Assembly: GCA_023409975.1 (NCBI GenBank)
Contig: JAEYQO010000104.1
Span: 1,157-65,156, forward strand
Reading direction: 5' to 3'
From: Bacteroidota bacterium
Lineage (GTDB): Bacteria > Bacteroidota > Bacteroidia > Chitinophagales > Chitinophagaceae
Length of the DNA: 64,000 nt
Shown: positions 1,966-29,867 of the stretch, one piece after another
How positions within the stretch are numbered: position 1 is the stretch's first letter
Layout: every line of letters begins with the position of its first letter
Made by a program: the position numbers and the translations under genes
The notes under the pieces: generated by a model
Database searches by the model: none
What the model saw: the letters and a program-made list of their open reading frames with translations, nothing else
Told to the model about the DNA's origin: nothing

Positions 1966-1988
1966 AAATCACTGTTGTCCGACAAAAT
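1966..1988. repeat. IS left terminal inverted repeat
   Basis: aaatcactgttgtccgacaaaat; matches the reverse complement of 3362-3384 at 21/23 positions. Confidence 0.75.
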
Positions 1989-2066
1989 CGAAAACAGGTT
2001 GTAAATTCCTCTGAGACCTTTGATTTTACTGGCTCGTGTTGCCGGTTTTCGAAAGCAGGGGGGGGC

Positions 2067-3278
2067 TCAGGTGGGCCCAAACAAGTCATAGTGGACCGGA
2101 AGTTTTGCGTTTCTTTTCCTTTTCTGGTTATGCAGTGCAAGCAGGCCCTTAATACTGATGTATCCTGCCAGATGGATGCGTAACAAAGTAGTGACATTGC
2201 TGAAAGCAATTTTTGAGCCATTACGGTTGTGGATAACACTGAGCAGCAGCACGCCAATCAGCGCGCACCATATCTGCACCTCTATGGCGTTTTGATTATC
2301 TCCCACAAAATACTGCAAAGGAAAATTCTGCTTAAGCTTCTTAAAGAATAGCTCTATCTGCCATCGATACTGGTAGATAGCCGCAATTGTGGCTGCATCT
2401 AACTCAAAGTTATTGGTGATAAACTCGTAGACCCGGCCTCCTTTGGCATCCCACCAGGCAATGCGACGCAGTTCCAGAATGTGCTCTTTCCCTTGCCCAT
2501 CTTTATAGGTCTGATGAATGATTTCATCTTTTAAGACCGAATCCGGCGTGTCTTTAGCCGGTAACTTTTCGGATACCGAAGTATAGATGGCATTATCCTT
2601 CTGGCGGGTGACAAAGAAGATGCCTTTCCGGATAAAGTCTGCAAACTGCAGGTAGTTGTTGTACCCCTTGTCAAAAGTCAGAAAGGAGCCCTCAGGTAGC
2701 TGAATATACTTCAGGAATTGCTGGTCATTATCTGCTGCGGCATTAAAGCGGATCAGTACGGGCATTAGGGATGTAGCCTGGAGCATGGTGTTCTTCTTAA
2801 TCCCTCCCTTTCTTTTGCCATCTGCAGGTGTTCTCCCGGATGTCTTTAGAATGGCCTTAAACAGGGAAAAAACCGTTGAATCAATAACAAAGAGCTTAGA
2901 CAGTACTGCGGAAGATAGAGTGCTGTCCGACAAATTAAGCCGGTAGCGAGCGCATAAATCCTCATATATCTTACCAAATACGGCGGATGATCTGTTCTTA
3001 TTTGCATCAGCAAGCGTGGAACGTGGAGGTACCTTATTAAGGTTCAGGTGAGAGAGCTTACCGCCAAAAGCTTCCAGCCCCATCACGATCTCCCGTAGCG
3101 ACGTACAGTTGGACAGTACACAAAACATCATGGTAACATAATGATCCCAGGCTGTGATAGACTTATACCACTTGTTTGCCTTAGTTTCTTTGAAAACCTG
3201 AGACAGGCTGTCTTTAGACGAAAGCGTCAGGATCTGGGAGAAGATGTGCTGTCCGACAAAATGGGTACTTTTGTTCAT
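2067..3278 (-). CDS. IS4-family DDE transposase (DUF4372-type N-terminus)
   Basis: MNKSTHFVGQHIFSQILTL...WDHYVTMMFCVLSNCTSLREI...FVIDSTVFSL...TFDKGYNNY...YRWQIELFFKKLKQNF: the N-terminal domain plus DDE_Tnp_1-like YRWQIE.FFK motif typical of Bacteroidota IS4 elements. I use the ATG at 3278; the listed ORF start at 3314 is TTG. Confidence 0.85.
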   Translation of the reverse strand: MNKSTHFVGQHIFSQILTLSSKDSLSQVFKETKANKWYKSITAWDHYVTMMFCVLSNCTSLREIVMGLEAFGGKLSHLNLNKVPPRSTLADANKNRSSAVFGKIYEDLCARYRLNLSDSTLSSAVLSKLFVIDSTVFSLFKAILKTSGRTPADGKRKGGIKKNTMLQATSLMPVLIRFNAAADNDQQFLKYIQLPEGSFLTFDKGYNNYLQFADFIRKGIFFVTRQKDNAIYTSVSEKLPAKDTPDSVLKDEIIHQTYKDGQGKEHILELRRIAWWDAKGGRVYEFITNNFELDAATIAAIYQYRWQIELFFKKLKQNFPLQYFVGDNQNAIEVQIWCALIGVLLLSVIHNRNGSKIAFSNVTTLLRIHLAGYISIKGLLALHNQKRKRNAKLPVHYDLFGPT

Positions 3279-3361
3279 GTTGTAGTTAATTCTATGGAAA
3301 GAACAAACTAACAACTTTTAGGGGGCCCCGTGGCCCCCTTTATAATGATTTATACCGAATT

Positions 3362-3384
3362 ATTTTCTCGGACAACAGTGGTTT
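3362..3384. repeat. IS right terminal inverted repeat
   Basis: attttctcggacaacagtggttt; pairs with 1966-1988. Confidence 0.75.
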
Positions 3385-3470
3385 TCTTCCTTTTATTTCA
3401 ACTGAAACTTTCCCACAGTTTGCGTTTTTCTGAAATATGGCGGCTAAGATGCTCCAATTTCTCAACCTAC

Positions 3471-3536
3471 TGACAAGGTATTGACAAGGTATCAACAAGG
3501 AGTTAACAAGGAGTCAACAAGGAGTCAACAAGGAGT
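3471..3536 (+). repeat. Tandem array A1: 6 x 11-bp units
   Basis: tgacaaggtat tgacaaggtat caacaaggagt taacaaggagt caacaaggagt caacaaggagt; exact 11-bp period. Confidence 0.9.
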
Positions 3537-3600
3537 TATCCCCCATTCTCGTTCGTCTAAATAATTGGTATTTCAATCACATATGAGGCGAGAAAATGGT

Positions 3601-3665
3601 CCCACATTTTTGATGCCAGAGATTTTCTTTCCGCGCCAGGCGGGGCTTTGCTGTGTGTTGCGCAA
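3601..3665 (+). repeat. Box B1 (about 65-bp direct repeat, partner at 4196-4260)
   Basis: Shares ..atgcca.a.ATTTTCTTTCCGC.CCAG....GGCTTTG.. with 4196-4260. The 13-mer attttctttccgc is exact at 3622-3634 and 4216-4228. Confidence 0.7.
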
Positions 3666-3691
3666 CAACAGCAATGGATTTGGATGAGAAT

Positions 3692-3930
3692 GGCCGTTGG
3701 CCGTTGGCGGTGGAGCTGAATCGATGGAAGGAAAATGGGGAAAGCCAAGACGAAGGCTCAGGCAAGGGCGAAGGCCAAGGCCAAGGCGAAGGCCAAGGCA
3801 CCCCCACAACCCACGACCTCGACCAAACGGGCCGTTGGCCATTGGCGGGGAAAAGAGCGAAAGCCAAAGCCAAGGCCAAAGCCAAGGCACCCGCACAACC
3901 CACAACCCACAACCCACAACCCACAACCAA
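3692..3930 (+). repeat. Two tandem low-complexity modules (M1 3692-3828, M2 3829-3930)
   Basis: Each module starts ggccgttggcc(g/a)ttggcgg. It continues with an (AAGGCC/AAAGCC)n hexamer tract (about 3742-3800 and 3857-3890) and ends with CACAACC-type heptamers. Confidence 0.85.
3894..3928 (+). repeat. Perfect heptanucleotide microsatellite (CACAACC)x5
   Basis: cacaacc repeated five times without mismatch; a degenerate 3-unit version lies at about 3805-3825. Confidence 0.95.
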
Positions 3931-3943
3931 TCAGGTATGGACA

Positions 3944-4009
3944 ACTCCTTAATGACTCTTTACTGACTCTTTGGTGACTGTTTGGTGATACTTTGGTGAT
4001 ACCCTGGCA
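3944..4009 (-). repeat. Tandem array A2: 6 x 11-bp units, inverted copy of A1
   Basis: actccttaatg actctttactg actctttggtg actgtttggtg atactttggtg ataccctggca. It matches 49/66 positions of the reverse complement of A1, with the same 4 act.. + 2 atac.. unit order. Confidence 0.85.
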
Positions 4010-4088
4010 ACTGGGTAGCAAAGCATAGCTCTTTTCTTAAAAAATAGCGTTTTGGCTGCACAAGCCTTATGCAGCCTTCACTGTGATG

Positions 4089-4154
4089 ACTCTTTGCTGA
4101 CTCTTTGGTGATACTTTGGTGACTCTTTGGTGATACTTTGGTGATACCCTCGCA
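4089..4154 (-). repeat. Tandem array A3: 6 x 11-bp units, direct copy of A2
   Basis: actctttgctg actctttggtg atactttggtg actctttggtg atactttggtg ataccctcgca; 57/66 identical to A2 and 79 bp downstream of it. Confidence 0.9.
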
Positions 4155-4195
4155 GCACACTTGTTTTTAACTGGTTTTTTTCGGAAACATTGTCT

Positions 4196-4260
4196 CCTCA
4201 TTTCTCATGCCACAAATTTTCTTTCCGCACCAGCAGCGGCTTTGACACGGGTCGCGCGAC
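4196..4260 (+). repeat. Box B2 (direct repeat of B1)
   Basis: cctcatttctcatgccacaaATTTTCTTTCCGCaCCAGcagcGGCTTTGacacgggtcgcgcgac; see B1. Confidence 0.7.
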
Positions 4261-4453
4261 CTTAGCGACCCATATTTCTGCCTGTTCTTGCTCATTTTTG
4301 CACCATGATTCACAACATCAGACCCATGAACGGATTAAACGCTCAGATACTCATTCAGTACGCCCGGTTCCCACTATTGAAAATTTCTATATTCGATGGC
4401 CGCCAAACGGTTTGTCCTGATCCGATGTCTCTACAGTCACCTCAAAGTTTTTT

Positions 4454-5749
4454 ATGAAGTATTTTGATCGGCGAAAGATGATTCAGAACCTGATTTCAAC
4501 TACCGCTTTCCTCGTTTTGCTTGTGTCCTGCAGTTCGGAGGCTGCCGGAAAGCAAGTGAAGGTTTTGTTCATTGGCAATAGCTATACGTATGTCAACAAT
4601 CTGCCAGTGCTGATCGCTGACATGGCAACAGCCTCCGGTGACCAACTAGTTTTCAGCACCAGCGCCCCCGGAGGACACACCCTGGAGCAACATGCATCGA
4701 ATCCAGCCACTTTATCGCTGATAGCCCAGGGGGGGTGGGATTATGTTGTATTGCAGGAACAAAGTCAACGGCCTGCCTTTCCCGATGCCCAGGTAGTCGC
4801 CGATGTATATCCCTATGCCCGAAAGCTCGACAGCCTTGTAAAGGCAGCGGATTCCTGTACAAAAACTGTTTTTTATATGACCTGGGGACGAAAGAATGGT
4901 GATCAGATGAACTGCGCTTTTTTCCCGCCACTTTGTACGTATCTCGGTATGGATAGTCTGCTGCAGCTTCGCTACAGTATTATGGCCGATAATAACGGTG
5001 CCGTTCTTGCCCCCGTTGCAAAGGTTTGGAGGCAAGTCAGAGCTCAGCACCCCTCACTGGAACTGTACGATGCGGACGAGAGTCATCCTTCTCTGAAAGG
5101 TTCTTTTGCCGCTGCCGCCGCGTTCTATGCGATTTTCTTCAATAAAAATCCTGCGCTAAACAGCTATACCGCAGGTCTGGATGCGAGCGAGGCACTTACT
5201 ATAAAAAATGCTGCAAAGTTGGTTGTATTCGATTCTCTGACTACCTGGTATCAGCATGATCCACTGCCGGCTGCTCAGTTTAATTATACCGTGTCTGGAA
5301 ATCAGGTAAGTTTTCAGAATGCTTCTACAGATGCCACCACTTTTAAATGGTACTTCGGTGATGGTGACAGCTCTACACTGGAACACCCGGTACACTCCTA
5401 TGCTTCCATTGGGACCTATCCGGTGACCCTTATTGCCAGTCATTGTTCTTTCACCGATACTACATTAATCAATGTTCAAATGTCCGGCACTGGATTGGAG
5501 GTGATCCACAGCCCTATGGACATCAACATCTACCCAAATCCTGCCAAAGACTTCGTTTCGCTGCAGGCGTCTGAGGATATCAGGAAAGTTGTGATGTTTA
5601 GCGTGTCTGGATCTAAAGTCGCGGAATGGCAATCCCTCAAAGCCAGGGAGCTGGAACTGGATATCAGATTGCTCTCCAGCGGTATGTACTACCTGAATAT
5701 GATCACCGACGAAGGCCGGAACGTGAGGCTGATCCAGGTCATCAAATAG
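4454..5749 (+). CDS. Secreted SGNH/DUF4886-like hydrolase with PKD domain and T9SS type-A C-terminal sorting domain
   Basis: Signal peptide; KVLFIGNSYTYVNNLP (SGNH block I-like); PKD motif FKWYFGDGDSSTLEHPVHSYASIGTYPVTLIA; C-terminal IYPNPAKDFVSLQ...GMYYLNMITDEGRNVRLIQVIK (Por secretion tail). Confidence 0.8.
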   Translation: MKYFDRRKMIQNLISTTAFLVLLVSCSSEAAGKQVKVLFIGNSYTYVNNLPVLIADMATASGDQLVFSTSAPGGHTLEQHASNPATLSLIAQGGWDYVVLQEQSQRPAFPDAQVVADVYPYARKLDSLVKAADSCTKTVFYMTWGRKNGDQMNCAFFPPLCTYLGMDSLLQLRYSIMADNNGAVLAPVAKVWRQVRAQHPSLELYDADESHPSLKGSFAAAAAFYAIFFNKNPALNSYTAGLDASEALTIKNAAKLVVFDSLTTWYQHDPLPAAQFNYTVSGNQVSFQNASTDATTFKWYFGDGDSSTLEHPVHSYASIGTYPVTLIASHCSFTDTTLINVQMSGTGLEVIHSPMDINIYPNPAKDFVSLQASEDIRKVVMFSVSGSKVAEWQSLKARELELDIRLLSSGMYYLNMITDEGRNVRLIQVIK

Positions 5750-29736: not shown

Positions 29737-29780
29737 AACGCAGGTATAACGCAGGTATAACTCAGGTCCAACTGAATGGT
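29737..29780 (+). repeat. Tandem 11-bp array (4 units, decaying further to about 29802)
   Basis: aacgcaggtat aacgcaggtat aactcaggtcc aactgaatggt. It has the same period as arrays A1-A3 and a related unit (AAC..AGG.(A/T)(G/T)T). It is preceded by ggtggagc-type short repeats at 29693-29730. Confidence 0.8.
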
Positions 29781-29855
29781 GACGGAGGGGTAGGGGGTAT
29801 TGGACGCTAAGTTGGCCCTTGGCTTGTTCGTCACAGTTAGATGTCAGTTTTCAAC

Positions 29856-29867
29856 CGGACAACAGTG
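29856..29867. repeat. 12-mer identical to the IS right-end core (cggacaacagtg)
   Basis: An exact copy of 3369-3380 in the same orientation, with no further IS similarity around it. Possibly a solo-end remnant or a shared motif. Confidence 0.35.

What the first reader, a model, noticed from the sequence alone, without database searches (positions are those of the whole stretch)
3385..4453. 1.07-kb non-coding region built from nested short tandem repeats: inverted 66-bp arrays of 11-mers, duplicated hexamer/heptamer microsatellite modules and a duplicated 65-bp box
**Seen in sequence.**
- A1 (3471-3536) is six exact-period 11-mers.
- A2 (3944-4009) is its inverted copy, with 49/66 matches and the same 4+2 unit order.
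- A3 (4089-4154) is a direct copy of A2 (57/66).
- A1 and A2 bracket 407 bp. This stretch contains two tandem modules, each made of ggccgttggcc.ttggcgg, then (AAGGCC)n, then (CACAACC)n, with a perfect (CACAACC)x5 at 3894-3928.
- A roughly 65-bp box with an exact 13-mer core (attttctttccgc) occurs at 3601-3665 and 4196-4260.
- All six frames are open or low-complexity, so none of this looks coding.
- The block lies between an IS right end (3384) and the start of a T9SS cargo gene (4454).

**Inference.**
- An 11-bp period is close to one helical turn. That would place identical sites on one DNA face, as in iteron-like protein-binding arrays.
- The inverted arrays could delimit an invertible or hairpin-forming segment. 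As plus-strand RNA, A1 and A2 pair at about 10/11 positions per unit if G:U pairs are allowed.
- The microsatellites are the kind of tract that changes length by slippage, so phase or expression variation of the downstream gene is possible.
- I cannot tell which of these, if any, applies.
Basis: seen in the sequence. Interest (0 to 1): 0.6.

Follow-up and report, generated by a model that had tools for sequence, protein, structure and literature searches.

The report
Dispersed repeat modules with sigma-54-like promoters
The odd 1-kb stretch is a worn, IS-cut copy of a repeat family scattered between the genes of this freshwater Bacteroidota genome, each module pairing five or six 11-base units with a conserved sequence that reads as a sigma-54 promoter; what the family does is not shown.

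Summary
The region is not unique slippage debris.

**What it is.** It is a composite of two "array-box" modules: type A (3381-3693, cut on the left by an IS) and type B (4027-4316). Microsatellite filler and an extra B-type array lie between them.

**The family.**
- The genome holds 27 box-bearing modules in three subtypes.
- It holds 78 period-11 arrays, against none at periods 9, 10 or 13.
- A second copy of the composite, about 0.84 kb aligned, lies on contig C113.
- Arrays, box and hairpin are 86-100% conserved among ten type-A copies. Spacers are 55-72%.
- At uppS-upp the module is a roughly 500-bp insertion absent from five congeners.

**The box.** On the opposite strand it reads TGGCAY-N6-TGC, a sigma-54 -24/-12 core aimed at the array. 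The genome has two rpoN genes and four activator genes. Both copies in the window have lost the -12 GC.

**Related family.** A family I call type D is a true MITE. It carries the terminal repeats of the neighbouring IS, an 11-mer array and a sigma-54-like core.

**Best reading (about 0.4).** Each module is a self-contained sigma-54-driven non-coding transcription unit. The classical iteron, CsrA or Hfq sponge, invertible-switch and coding readings are not supported.

Interest is moderate. This is a new variant of a known kind.

The parts
1970..3380 (-). IS4/IS5-type insertion sequence (context). Its inverted repeats are CACTGTTGTCCGAC/GAAAAT. The 415-aa DDE_Tnp_1 + DUF4372 transposase lies at 2067-3314. 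The IS truncates the type A module on its left.
   Evidence: The left flank of the IS does not continue the module, so the missing left part was lost.
3381..3693 (+). Type A array-box module, the right-hand 313 bp. Complete copies elsewhere extend about 150-200 bp further left and carry another 11-mer array.
   Evidence: Eight other copies at 80-91% identity start their match at 3380-3383, and one further, truncated copy is 82% identical.
3471..3536 (+). A1: six 11-bp units in the unit-type order GTAT, GTAT, GAGT, GAGT, GAGT, GAGT.
   Evidence: All ten type A copies have six units at 0.86-0.96 pairwise identity.
3537..3557 (+). Post-array motif TATCCCCCATTCTCGTTCGTC, shared by types A and C.
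   Evidence: 0.95-0.97 identity among type A copies. It is also present in type C.
3604..3632 (-). Box of module A. On the minus strand it reads GGAAAGAAAATCTCTGGCATCAAAAATGT, a sigma-54 -24/-12-like core pointing towards A1. The -12 element is TGT here instead of TGC.
3648..3674 (.). GC-rich palindromic hairpin TTGCTGTGTGTTGCGCAACAACAGCAA. The types differ symmetrically in the core palindrome: GTTGCGCAAC in A, GGTCGCGCGACC in B, GGTAGCGCTACC in C.
   Evidence: Identity among type A copies is 0.91-1.0.
3691..3928 (.). Two microsatellite modules, each GGCCGTTGGCC-type, then (AAGGCS)n, then (CACAACC)n. This is variable filler between the A and B parts of the composite.
   Evidence: The order is kept but unit numbers vary, and indels are not multiples of three, in C113, C75, C121, C91 and L024.
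3944..4009 (+). A2: a B-type array that is inverted relative to A1. It has no box of its own. Some other copies have only one B array, with the A2-type start joined to the A3-type end.
   Evidence: C113 has one unit fewer (an 11-bp indel).
4027..4316 (+). Type B array-box module.
   Evidence: C113, C14, C8 and C44 match at 85-92%, and further partial copies lie on C110, C91, C80, C51 and C74:75209-75400. The right boundary is at 4313-4316.
4054..4076 (.). Hairpin GGCTGCACAAGCCTTATGCAGCC at the left edge of module B. Read on the minus strand, it follows the array and precedes a U-rich run.
   Evidence: Variants in other copies keep pairing partly through G-U, but with mixed strand preference.
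4089..4154 (+). A3: the B-type array, built of TGACTCTTTGG and TGATACTTTGG units.
4198..4226 (-). Box of module B. On the minus strand it reads GGAAAGAAAATTTGTGGCATGAGAAATGA, a sigma-54-like core pointing towards A3. The -12 element is TGA here instead of TGC.
4249..4271 (.). Palindrome plus a third half-site, GGGTCGCGCGACCTTAGCGACCC.
4293..4308 (+). Right end of module B, CATTTTTGCACCATGA. It contains a TAnnTTTG-like -7 element facing the downstream gene. This promoter reading is my inference.
   Evidence: The sequence is conserved at the right end of type B copies, and type A has CAGTTTTGCA at the same place.
4454..5749 (+). Downstream gene (context): a 431-aa T9SS cargo protein with DUF4886, PKD and Por_Secre_tail domains.

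Best explanation
**Identity (shown).** The block is one composite copy (A module, microsatellite filler, B module) of a lineage-restricted family of dispersed intergenic repeats. This copy is cut by an IS and partly decayed.

Each module has the same layout:
- five or six phased 11-bp units;
- a 45-70 bp spacer;
- a roughly 45-bp conserved box;
- a GC-rich palindromic hairpin.

**Mechanism (inferred).** It fires towards the module's own array. Each intact module would then be a self-contained, activator-dependent transcription unit making a non-coding RNA of about 150-250 nt. That RNA would display the array as five or six tandem 11-nt motifs.

Types A and C would display the pyrimidine-rich version (ACUCCUUGUUG). 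Types B and D would display the purine-rich version (CACCAAAGAGU, GGAACCUACAA). A-type and B-type RNAs would therefore be largely complementary.

**Spread.** The modules spread as DNA. One related family, type D, is a true MITE of the neighbouring IS type. How types A, B and C move is unknown.

**The two modules in the window.** Both carry a point change in the essential -12 GC, and module A has lost its left part to the IS. They are probably inactive relics. Their outward-facing TTTTGCA end may still contribute to the promoter region of the T9SS cargo gene.
For: **Family and non-randomness**
- The full box pattern occurs 27 times in G000. It occurs 0 times when the pattern is read backwards, and no real copy was found in 14 congeners.
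- There are 78 period-11 arrays, 76 of them outside long ORFs, against 0 at periods 9, 10 and 13.
- A second copy of the composite, about 0.84 kb aligned, lies at C113:20214-21054.

**Constraint**
- Among ten type A copies, arrays score 0.86-0.96, the post-array motif 0.95-0.97, the box 0.90-0.96 and the hairpin 0.91-1.0. Flanks and spacers score 0.55-0.72.
- Across types A, B and C, which are about 70% identical or unalignable elsewhere, the box stays nearly invariant while its N positions vary.
- Unit number and unit-type order are fixed within types A and C, and the B array carries the same order in mirror image.

**Sigma-54 reading**
- The spacing is GG-N10-GC. TGGCA is kept in 26 of 27 copies and the -12 TGC in 23 of 27.
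- These modules supply 21 of the 31 TGGCAY-N5-WTGC sites lying outside long ORFs. Four more lie in type D, whose core is a textbook TGGCATTCCGTTTGCA.
- The genome encodes two RpoN proteins and four Sigma54_activat proteins.
- The promoter lies inside the conserved element. Type C has no conserved sequence upstream of its array for a forward promoter.

**RNA-unit layout**
- In type B, read from the box, the array is followed by a conserved 7-10 bp hairpin and a U-rich run at the element's edge.
- In type D the array is followed by a U7 run before the terminal repeat.
- The sister species G008 has its own 11-mer family, TATAGAGACCT, at 12 or more loci. In seven of the ten loci examined a conserved motif lies about 100-200 nt upstream on the same strand, so pairing a conserved upstream signal with an array may recur.

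**Mobility**
- The module at uppS-upp is an insertion of about 500 bp relative to five congeners.
- Type D carries the terminal repeats of the window's IS.
Against: - Promoter activity, strand and RNA ends are all inferred.
- The array has opposite orientations relative to the box in types A and C versus B and D. That fits a DNA-level role at least as well as an RNA one.
- Types A and C have no recognisable terminator after the array on the promoter strand. Type C has a good hairpin plus T-run on the other strand.
- The palindromes lie only about 35-60 bp upstream of -24, which is closer than most activator binding sites.
- The -12 element is ATGC rather than TTGC.
- In type D the sigma-54-like core is degenerate in 3 of 9 aligned copies.
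- The flanking genes show no common theme and only a weak orientation bias.
- Neither of the two sponge-RNA partner proteins searched for is present: there is no CsrA and no Hfq.
- Rfam finds nothing, and consensus folding does not clearly favour either strand.
- The genome is probably a short-read metagenome bin. Repeat copies may be collapsed or mis-joined.
Confidence: 0.4

Rival explanations
1. The family is a selfish, non-autonomous mobile repeat with no host function. The conserved arrays, box and hairpin would be the cis-acting sites that its unknown mobilising enzyme needs. The resemblance to a sigma-54 promoter would be incidental or a relic.
For: - The module at uppS-upp is an insertion polymorphism.
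- The copies sit next to unrelated genes.
- The family is restricted to this lineage and to a co-occurring bin.
- Many copies lie at contig ends.
- The related type D is a true MITE with the IS terminal repeats.
- The array orientation is not fixed relative to the box.
Against: - Types A, B and C have no terminal inverted repeats and no recognisable target duplication.
- There is no Y1/HUH transposase, and no candidate enzyme was found.
- The exact GG-N10-GC geometry is kept across three diverged types while the N positions drift. That is hard to explain as a relic.
- Selfish and functional readings are not mutually exclusive.
Confidence: 0.3
2. The 11-bp arrays work as double-stranded DNA. 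Five or six sites on one helical face would bind a cooperative protein, such as a ParR/omega-type or OmpR/PhoB-type direct-repeat binder, a nucleoid protein, or an activator or repressor of the adjacent box.
For: - The period is exactly 11, at 78 loci, with none at periods 9, 10 or 13.
- Unit number is fixed and the arrays are strongly conserved.
- The array works in either orientation relative to the box, as expected for a DNA site.
- Sister species have different unit sequences, as if co-evolving with a binder.
Against: - At least eight unrelated unit sequences coexist in one genome. Several binders, or a shape reader, would be needed.
- The arrays lie downstream of the putative promoter in types A and C, so they are not at enhancer positions.
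- There is no rep or par gene association, so classical iterons and centromeres are excluded.
- No candidate protein was identified.
Confidence: 0.12
3. The block is transcribed on the plus strand as part of a long leader of the T9SS cargo gene. A1 would pair with A2 or A3 into a roughly 66-bp imperfect duplex, giving an IVS-like, RNase III-type processing hairpin. This resembles the inverted tandem-repeat arms that flank PF05635 genes.
For: - A1xA2 scores -74.9 kcal/mol and A1xA3 -76.7 kcal/mol on the plus strand. The minus strand gives -64.7 and -52.3, and shuffles give about -26.
- The genome's two PF05635 genes are indeed flanked by inverted arrays of short tandem units.
- Earlier notes of this scan describe such cassettes in other genomes.
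Against: - There is no PF05635 remnant between the arms.
- Most period-11 arrays are solo or in direct pairs: 16 direct against 8 inverted neighbouring pairs.
- Solo type A and type C modules have no inverted partner.
- The arms are 397-407 bp apart, and what lies between them is another conserved module rather than a loop.
- No plus-strand promoter is evident upstream, where the IS sits.
Confidence: 0.08
4. The block is a phase-variation or inversion switch for the downstream T9SS cargo gene. It would act by slippage of the hexamer, heptamer or 11-mer tracts, or by inversion of 3537-3943.
For: - Unit numbers differ between paralogous copies.
- The block lies upstream of a surface or secreted protein gene.
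Against: - The same composite sits upstream of unrelated genes, including rpsF.
- The orientation of the inner segment is the same in all copies.
- No recombinase gene was found among the neighbouring ORFs scanned.
- The tracts are imperfect, which slows slippage.
- The tracts lie more than 500 bp from the start codon, outside any core promoter spacer.
Confidence: 0.05

Closest known systems
Modular dispersed intergenic repeats that carry regulatory signals: BOX elements of Streptococcus pneumoniae (boxA-(boxB)n-boxC) and Correia/NEMIS elements of Neisseria (from my own knowledge)
   Same: - They are short, non-coding, multi-copy elements between genes.
- They are built from sub-modules, one of which is tandemly repeated.
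- They sit next to unrelated genes.
- They can bring promoter or processing signals.
- They are restricted to one lineage.
   Different: - There is no sequence similarity.
- Types A, B and C have no terminal inverted repeats, whereas Correia elements have them.
- The tandem unit is 11 bp, not 45 bp.
- The conserved core here is a sigma-54-type -24/-12 motif, not a sigma-70 promoter or an IHF site. I found no report of that: a full-text search for 'sigma-54' together with 'miniature inverted-repeat' returned 0 papers.
Short tandemly repeated intergenic sequences: cyanobacterial STRR heptamers, TAACTGA repeats of Beggiatoaceae, Cyanobacteria and Bacteroidetes (PMC4679880), and G-rich heptamers of Xanthomonas and Nostoc (PMC4692102)
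   Same: - Many intergenic arrays of short units occur in one genome.
- The words are lineage-specific.
- The function is unknown.
- The hexamer, heptamer and octamer tracts in this block and genome belong to this class.
   Different: - The 11-bp period is unusual.
- Inside types A and C the arrays have a fixed unit number and order. They are embedded in a larger conserved element with a box and a hairpin, unlike free-slipping heptamer tracts.
MITEs mobilised by IS4/IS5-type transposases
   Same: - Type D matches this kind. It is about 420 bp, has the terminal repeats CACTGTTGTCCG...CGGACAGCAGTG that match the IS in the window, has no transposase, and matches on about 33 contigs.
- It carries the same kind of cargo: an 11-mer array plus a sigma-54-like core.
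   Different: The modules in the finding itself (types A and B) have no such terminal repeats and no detectable target duplication.
RpoN-dependent protein-sponge small RNAs such as CrcZ/CrcY of Pseudomonas (my own knowledge; discussed in PMC8395346 and PMC9730152), and CsrB/RsmZ
   Same: The predicted layout is the same: a sigma-54 promoter followed by an RNA displaying about six repeats of one short motif. Many purine-strand units contain A(N)GGA.
   Different: - Neither partner protein is present: there is no CsrA in the genus and no Hfq in the genome.
- There are dozens of dispersed copies rather than one to three genes.
- Transcription is unproven.
IVS-like cassettes: PF05635 (23S rRNA intervening-sequence protein) genes between inverted arrays of short tandem units
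   Same: - The block has inverted arrays of tandem units bracketing about 400 bp.
- This genome's two PF05635 genes do have such arms.
   Different: - There is no PF05635 remnant here.
- The units are 11-mers, not 7-8-mers.
- Most modules have no inverted partner.

Membership tests
Sigma-54 (RpoN)-dependent promoter | A -24 GG and a -12 GC separated by 10 nt, within TGGCAC-N5-TTGCW | tested here: inconclusive
   The family consensus is TGGCAY-N4-AAATGCGG with correct spacing. TGGCA is kept in 26 of 27 copies and TGC in 23 of 27. The two copies inside the finding read ...ATGT (3604-3632) and ...ATGA (4198-4226), so the -12 GC is lost.
Sigma-54 (RpoN)-dependent promoter | RpoN and at least one AAA+ activator are encoded in the genome | tested here: met
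   There are two Sigma54_DBD genes (C40, C89) and four strong Sigma54_activat genes.
Sigma-54 (RpoN)-dependent promoter | An upstream activator binding site | tested here: inconclusive
   A type-specific palindrome (GTnGCGCnAC) lies about 35-60 bp upstream of -24. No binder is known, and this is closer than usual.
Sigma-54 (RpoN)-dependent promoter | An RpoN-dependent transcript start about 12 nt downstream of the GC | not testable with these tools
MITE of the neighbouring IS4/IS5-type IS | Terminal inverted repeats matching the autonomous IS | tested here: not met
   The genome-wide map of ACTGTTGTCCG shows that types A, B and C are not bounded by it. Type D is.
MITE of the neighbouring IS4/IS5-type IS | Multi-copy, small, no transposase, with presence/absence between relatives | tested here: met
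   There are 27 modules. The copy at uppS-upp is a roughly 500-bp insertion absent from five congeners.
MITE of the neighbouring IS4/IS5-type IS | A target-site duplication | tested here: inconclusive
   The element edges are fuzzy because they begin with variable arrays. The congeners are too diverged (70-82% amino-acid identity) to define an empty site to the base.
Plasmid or phage iterons, or a partition centromere | A single array per replicon next to a rep or par gene, with AT-rich or DnaA-box context | tested here: not met
   There are 78 arrays on many contigs. The flanking genes are unrelated chromosomal genes such as uppS/bamA, rpsF, hutH and sensor kinases.
Invertible promoter (inverton) | Both orientations are observed, and a site-specific recombinase is nearby | tested here: not met
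   The internal orientation is the same in all composite copies. Among the neighbouring ORFs scanned, only a DDE transposase was found. Population reads were not available.
CsrB/RsmZ-type or CrcZ-type sponge RNA | The cognate RNA-binding protein (CsrA or Hfq) is present | tested here: not met
   PF02599 is absent from all 15 genomes of the genus. PF17209 is absent from G000. One RRM_1 protein is present.
IVS-like PF05635 hairpin cassette | Inverted arrays enclosing a PF05635 gene or its remnant | tested here: not met
   The inverted arrays are present. There is no Pfam hit on the inner ORFs and no tblastn hit with the genome's own PF05635 protein from C20; the one from C9 was read in the wrong frame and did not count.
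Short tandem intergenic repeats (STRR-type) | Many intergenic arrays of short units with lineage-specific words | tested here: met
Known RNA family (Rfam 15) | A covariance-model match | tested here: not met
   The only match is one chance-level hit (E = 1.7, 22 bits against a gathering score of 55), and it lies in the IS end.

The most novel reading that the evidence does not exclude
The array-box modules are a MITE-like, self-propagating family of sigma-54-dependent non-coding RNA genes. Each RNA would present five or six tandem 11-nt motifs. Sense-type RNAs (B, D) and antisense-type RNAs (A, C) would pair with each other, or would titrate an unknown RNA-binding protein. That would put dozens of loci under one enhancer-binding activator. 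It would be a regulatory RNA system with no described counterpart in Bacteroidota, which lack Hfq, ProQ and CsrA.
Probability: 0.2. Interest if true: 0.75.

Novelty: new variant of a known kind. Interest (0 to 1): 0.5.

Why it matters
Dispersed intergenic repeats are common, but for most of them the function is unknown. This family has three features that make it testable.
- Its conservation is strongly uneven. Arrays, box and hairpin are kept while spacers drift, which points to constraint rather than neutral debris.
- Its most conserved block has the exact geometry of a sigma-54 promoter. The repeats supply about two thirds of all such sites outside long ORFs in the genome.
- A sister family with the same cargo rides on a true MITE.

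If the promoters are active, one mobile element would have seeded dozens of activator-dependent transcription units across a chromosome. That would be a concrete example of repeats rewiring a sigma-54 regulon, and a possible source of regulatory RNAs in a phylum that lacks the usual RNA chaperones.

If they are not active, the family is still a useful marker. It explains why this genome's assembly breaks at these sites. It also shows that the block upstream of the T9SS gene is not a dedicated control region for that gene.

Tried and rejected
- **Rfam** (evalue mode, 3200-4600): nothing relevant.
- **Coding reading** of the (AAGGCC)n/(CACAACC)n stretch as an AKAK...PQPTT peptide. Some copies start with MNQ(Q/K)R, but frames differ between copies and indels are 2, 11 and 61 bp. 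There is no Pfam hit. Rejected.
- **Common downstream gene family.** The flanking genes are unrelated. The orientation statistics rest on crude long-ORF gene calls and are weak.
- **Relatives.**
  - BLAST of the module against 40 related genomes found nothing.
  - The exact box pattern in the GTDB species genomes found only two co-occurring bins, OH_CBB_99 and OH_CBB_66.
  - The JGI metagenome scan gave six chance hits without arrays.
  - The 3-mismatch hits in congeners lie in coding DNA.
- **REP/RAYT or IS200/IS605 origin.** There is no Y1 transposase.
- **CsrA sponge.** There is no CsrA in the genus.
- **Hfq sponge.** There is no Hfq.
- **Second rpoN as a lineage-specific partner.** Two rpoN genes are common in the genus.
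- **IVS-like cassette.** There is no PF05635 remnant.
- **Rho-loading (rut) reading** of the C-rich strand. The arrays are not enriched downstream of co-directional genes in either orientation.
- **Strand assignment.** Consensus folding and G-U versus A-C variants in the hairpins gave mixed results.
- **Sigma-70 and terminator consensus scan.** At background level.
- **Continuation of module A on the far side of the IS.** Absent.
Full report
**1. The observation**

- A1 (3471-3536) is six 11-mers.
- A2 (3944-4009) is inverted relative to A1. The arms are 71 nt long and 75% complementary, and 407 bp lie between A1 and A2.
- A3 (4089-4154) is a direct copy of A2 at 86%.
- The 65-nt box (3602-3666 and 4196-4260) is 75% identical, with the exact 13-mer ATTTTCTTTCCGC.
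- Two microsatellite modules are present, including a perfect (CACAACC)x5 at 3894-3928.

The block is non-coding. Its ORFs have no Pfam match, and paralogous copies differ by indels of 2, 11 and 61 bp.

The IS to the left is an IS4/IS5-type element with a DDE_Tnp_1 + DUF4372 transposase. Its inverted repeats place it at 1970-3380. The gene to the right (4454-5749) is a T9SS cargo protein.

**2. The block is a copy of something, not a local curiosity**

A search of the window's own genome (3.2 Mb, 124 contigs) with the 1069-bp block gave 77 matches. They resolve into modules.

- **Type A** corresponds to window 3381-3693. It has nine other copies at 80-91% identity.
  - In the window the IS has cut it. 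Complete copies run about 150-200 bp further left and begin with another 11-mer array (CAGGCTAGAGT).
  - The far side of the IS does not carry the missing part.
- **Type B** corresponds to window 4027-4316. It has about ten other copies.
- **Type C** is not in the window. It has nine copies.

All three types have the same layout: an array of five or six 11-bp units, a 45-70 bp spacer, an A-run, a conserved box, and a GC-rich palindrome. The B array is an A/C-type array turned round, with the same order of GAGTC-type and GTATC-type units.

A2 is an extra B-type array. Some copies have a single B array in which the A2-type start is joined to the A3-type end.

The whole order (A, microsatellites, B) recurs at C113:20214-21054 (80-91% identity) and partly on C91, C75, C44 and C74:75209-75564. 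Modules also cluster in the order C, A, B on C113, and C, A on C39 and C43.

The full box pattern occurs 27 times in this genome. It never occurs when read backwards. The genome holds 78 period-11 arrays, 76 of them outside long ORFs, against none at periods 9, 10 or 13. These arrays use at least eight different unit words.

**3. Constraint**

Pairwise identity among ten type A copies is uneven.

| Segment | Pairwise identity |
|---|---|
| Arrays | 0.86-0.96 |
| Post-array motif | 0.95-0.97 |
| Box | 0.90-0.96 |
| Hairpin | 0.91-1.0 |
| Leader, inner spacer and right flank | 0.55-0.72 |

Between types A, B and C most sequence is about 70% identical or unalignable. Even so, the box keeps its specified positions while its free positions drift.

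The palindromes differ between types by symmetric changes: GTTGCGCAAC, GGTCGCGCGACC and GGTAGCGCTACC.

Type A has six units in all ten copies. Type C has one fixed five-unit order in the nine copies aligned. B arrays and the microsatellites do vary in unit number.

This is not the pattern of neutral slippage debris.

**4. What the box looks like**

Read on the opposite strand, the box is GCGGAAAGAAAAT-NTNT-GGCAY-N4-AAATGCGG. That is TGGCAY-N6-TGC with the GG-N10-GC spacing of a sigma-54 -24/-12 promoter. It points at the module's own array.
- TGGCA is kept in 26 of 27 copies.
- The -12 TGC is kept in 23 of 27 copies.
- The genome has two rpoN genes and four enhancer-binding-protein genes.
- Of 31 TGGCAY-N5-WTGC sites lying outside long ORFs, 21 are in these modules and 4 are in type D.
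- Both boxes in the window have lost the GC (ATGT at 3604-3632, ATGA at 4198-4226). On this reading the window's copies are relics.

At the right end, types A and B carry (C)AnTTTTGCA facing outward. It resembles the Bacteroidota -7 element TAnnTTTG. That comparison is my own inference from established knowledge of Bacteroides promoters.

**5. Mobility and distribution**

- In five congeners the divergent uppS-upp spacer is about 250 bp. In this genome it is about 760 bp, because a solo type A element sits in it.
- The family was not found in 40 related genomes by BLAST. It was not found in 14 congeners with a 3-mismatch pattern search, nor in the JGI metagenome scan.
- It does occur in two bins from one bloom metagenome, OH_CBB_99 and OH_CBB_66.
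- One of those contigs overlaps a contig end of this genome by exactly 127 identical bases. The genome is therefore probably a k=127 short-read bin from that data set. Copy numbers are lower bounds, and joins through repeats need caution.
- The closest congener sampled (G008) has its own 11-mer family, TATAGAGACCT, at 12 or more loci. In seven of the ten loci examined a conserved motif (GGGTTACCTTTT..GGTATTAATA) lies about 100-200 nt upstream on the same strand. That motif is absent from this genome.
- A further repeat in this genome, type D, is about 420 bp long and matches on about 33 contigs. It is a true MITE.
  - Its ends (CACTGTTGTCCGGGGAAA ... TTTTTCCGGACAGCAGTG) match the inverted repeats of the IS in the window.
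  - Inside, it carries an 11-mer array (GGAACCTACAA and GGAAGGTACAA units) and a textbook TGGCATTCCGTTTGCA.
- Types A, B and C are not bounded by that terminal repeat. No Y1 transposase is present.

**6. How it most likely works**

*Shown:* a dispersed, constrained, non-coding modular repeat.

*Inferred:* each intact module is a sigma-54-dependent unit that transcribes its array.

Points in favour:
- The promoter is the only candidate that lies inside the conserved element. Type C has nothing conserved upstream of its array.
- In type B the array is followed, on that strand, by a conserved hairpin and a U-rich run at the element's edge.
- In type D a U7 run follows the array.
- The sister species may pair a conserved upstream motif with an array on the same strand, in seven of ten loci.

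Points against:
- There are no transcript data.
- The array has opposite orientations in A/C and B/D.
- Types A and C have no terminator on the promoter strand, while type C has a good hairpin plus T-run on the other strand.
- The palindromes lie close to -24.
- The core is degenerate in 3 of 9 aligned type D copies.

I put this reading at about 0.4.

The main rival, at about 0.3, is a selfish repeat whose conserved parts serve its own spread.

DNA-level binding of the phased arrays is at about 0.12. It fits the orientation-independence. It needs several binders or a shape reader, and it is not a classical iteron or centromere.

A plus-strand long hairpin (A1 with A2 or A3) is energetically strong (-75 to -77 kcal/mol). 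Two things are reminiscent of it: the IVS-like cassettes noted elsewhere in this scan, and the inverted arms around this genome's two PF05635 genes. However, no PF05635 remnant lies between the arms, and most arrays have no inverted partner. I put it at about 0.08.

A switch dedicated to the T9SS gene is unlikely, at about 0.05. The same composite sits in front of rpsF and other unrelated genes.

**7. Comparison with known systems**

In kind, this is closest to modular dispersed repeats such as BOX and Correia elements. It is also close to short tandem intergenic repeats, namely STRR and the TAACTGA repeats (PMC4679880, PMC4692102).

It differs in three ways: the 11-bp period, the fixed array architecture, and the sigma-54-type core. 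A full-text search for sigma-54 together with MITEs found no paper.

It works like a CrcZ-type RpoN-dependent repeat-motif RNA only on paper. The partner proteins of the known sponge RNAs are absent.

**8. Verdict**

The block is a new variant of a known kind, and interest is about 0.5.

The decisive data are missing: 5'-end mapping, rpoN dependence and long reads.

Noticed in passing
G000 contigs C4:28148-28700, C66:77199-77650, C99:70829-71139, C55:44023-44475 and about 30 others, many at contig ends: Type D is a MITE of about 420 bp. Its terminal repeats (CACTGTTGTCCGGGGAAA / TTTTTCCGGACAGCAGTG) match the IS at window 1970-3380. It carries an internal 11-mer array and a consensus sigma-54-like core, TGGCATTCCGTTTGCA.
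   Followed up: partly
window 29737-29867: A short 11-mer run (AACGCAGGTAT x2 and similar) lies next to a solo IS-type terminal repeat (CGGACAACAGTG at 29856-29867), in the leader of the sdh operon. It looks like the end of a type-D-like MITE.
   Followed up: partly
G008 loci L106-L115 (for example G008:C125:2499-2547): The closest congener sampled has its own 11-mer family, TATAGAGACCT, at 12 or more loci. In seven of the ten loci examined a conserved motif, GGGTTACCTTTTnCCnTTTTnGGTATTAATA, lies about 100-200 nt upstream behind an A-run. One such array sits at the orthologous upp upstream site.
   Followed up: partly
G000:C9:26676-26993 and G000:C20:4370-4678: Two PF05635 (23S rRNA intervening-sequence protein) genes are each flanked by inverted arrays of short tandem units (GTGTAGTTG/GGTGAGTT-type and GAGCGGAGAGCGAAA-type).
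   Followed up: partly
G000:C89:23027-24531 and G000:C40:11989-12462: There are two rpoN genes, and the second lies next to an enhancer-binding-protein gene. Eight of the 15 genomes of the genus have two rpoN genes.
   Followed up: partly
L024 (JAEYRQ010000596.1) 1-127 versus G000:C111:1-127; L025 3181-3315 versus the end of C66: Contigs binned into other MAGs of the OH_CBB data set share identical overlaps of 127-135 bp with contig ends of this genome. The genome is therefore likely a k=127 metagenome bin whose repeat-rich contigs were scattered among bins.
   Followed up: partly
G000:C43:2150-2700 and L024:~3300: Another small palindromic repeat, GCGACCCCTTTCTGGGGTCGACCGGTGTTGC, recurs. It looks REP-like, but no Y1/RAYT gene is present.
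   Followed up: no
G000 genome-wide: There are 33 period-8 arrays (for example CTAACCGT) and many heptamer tracts (GACATCT, TTAGTGG, CACAACC) in intergenic DNA, besides the 78 period-11 arrays.
   Followed up: partly
window 1970-3380: The IS has intact 19-nt inverted repeats but no target duplication. Its left flank does not continue the repeat module that its right end interrupts, so a rearrangement or deletion followed the insertion.
   Followed up: yes
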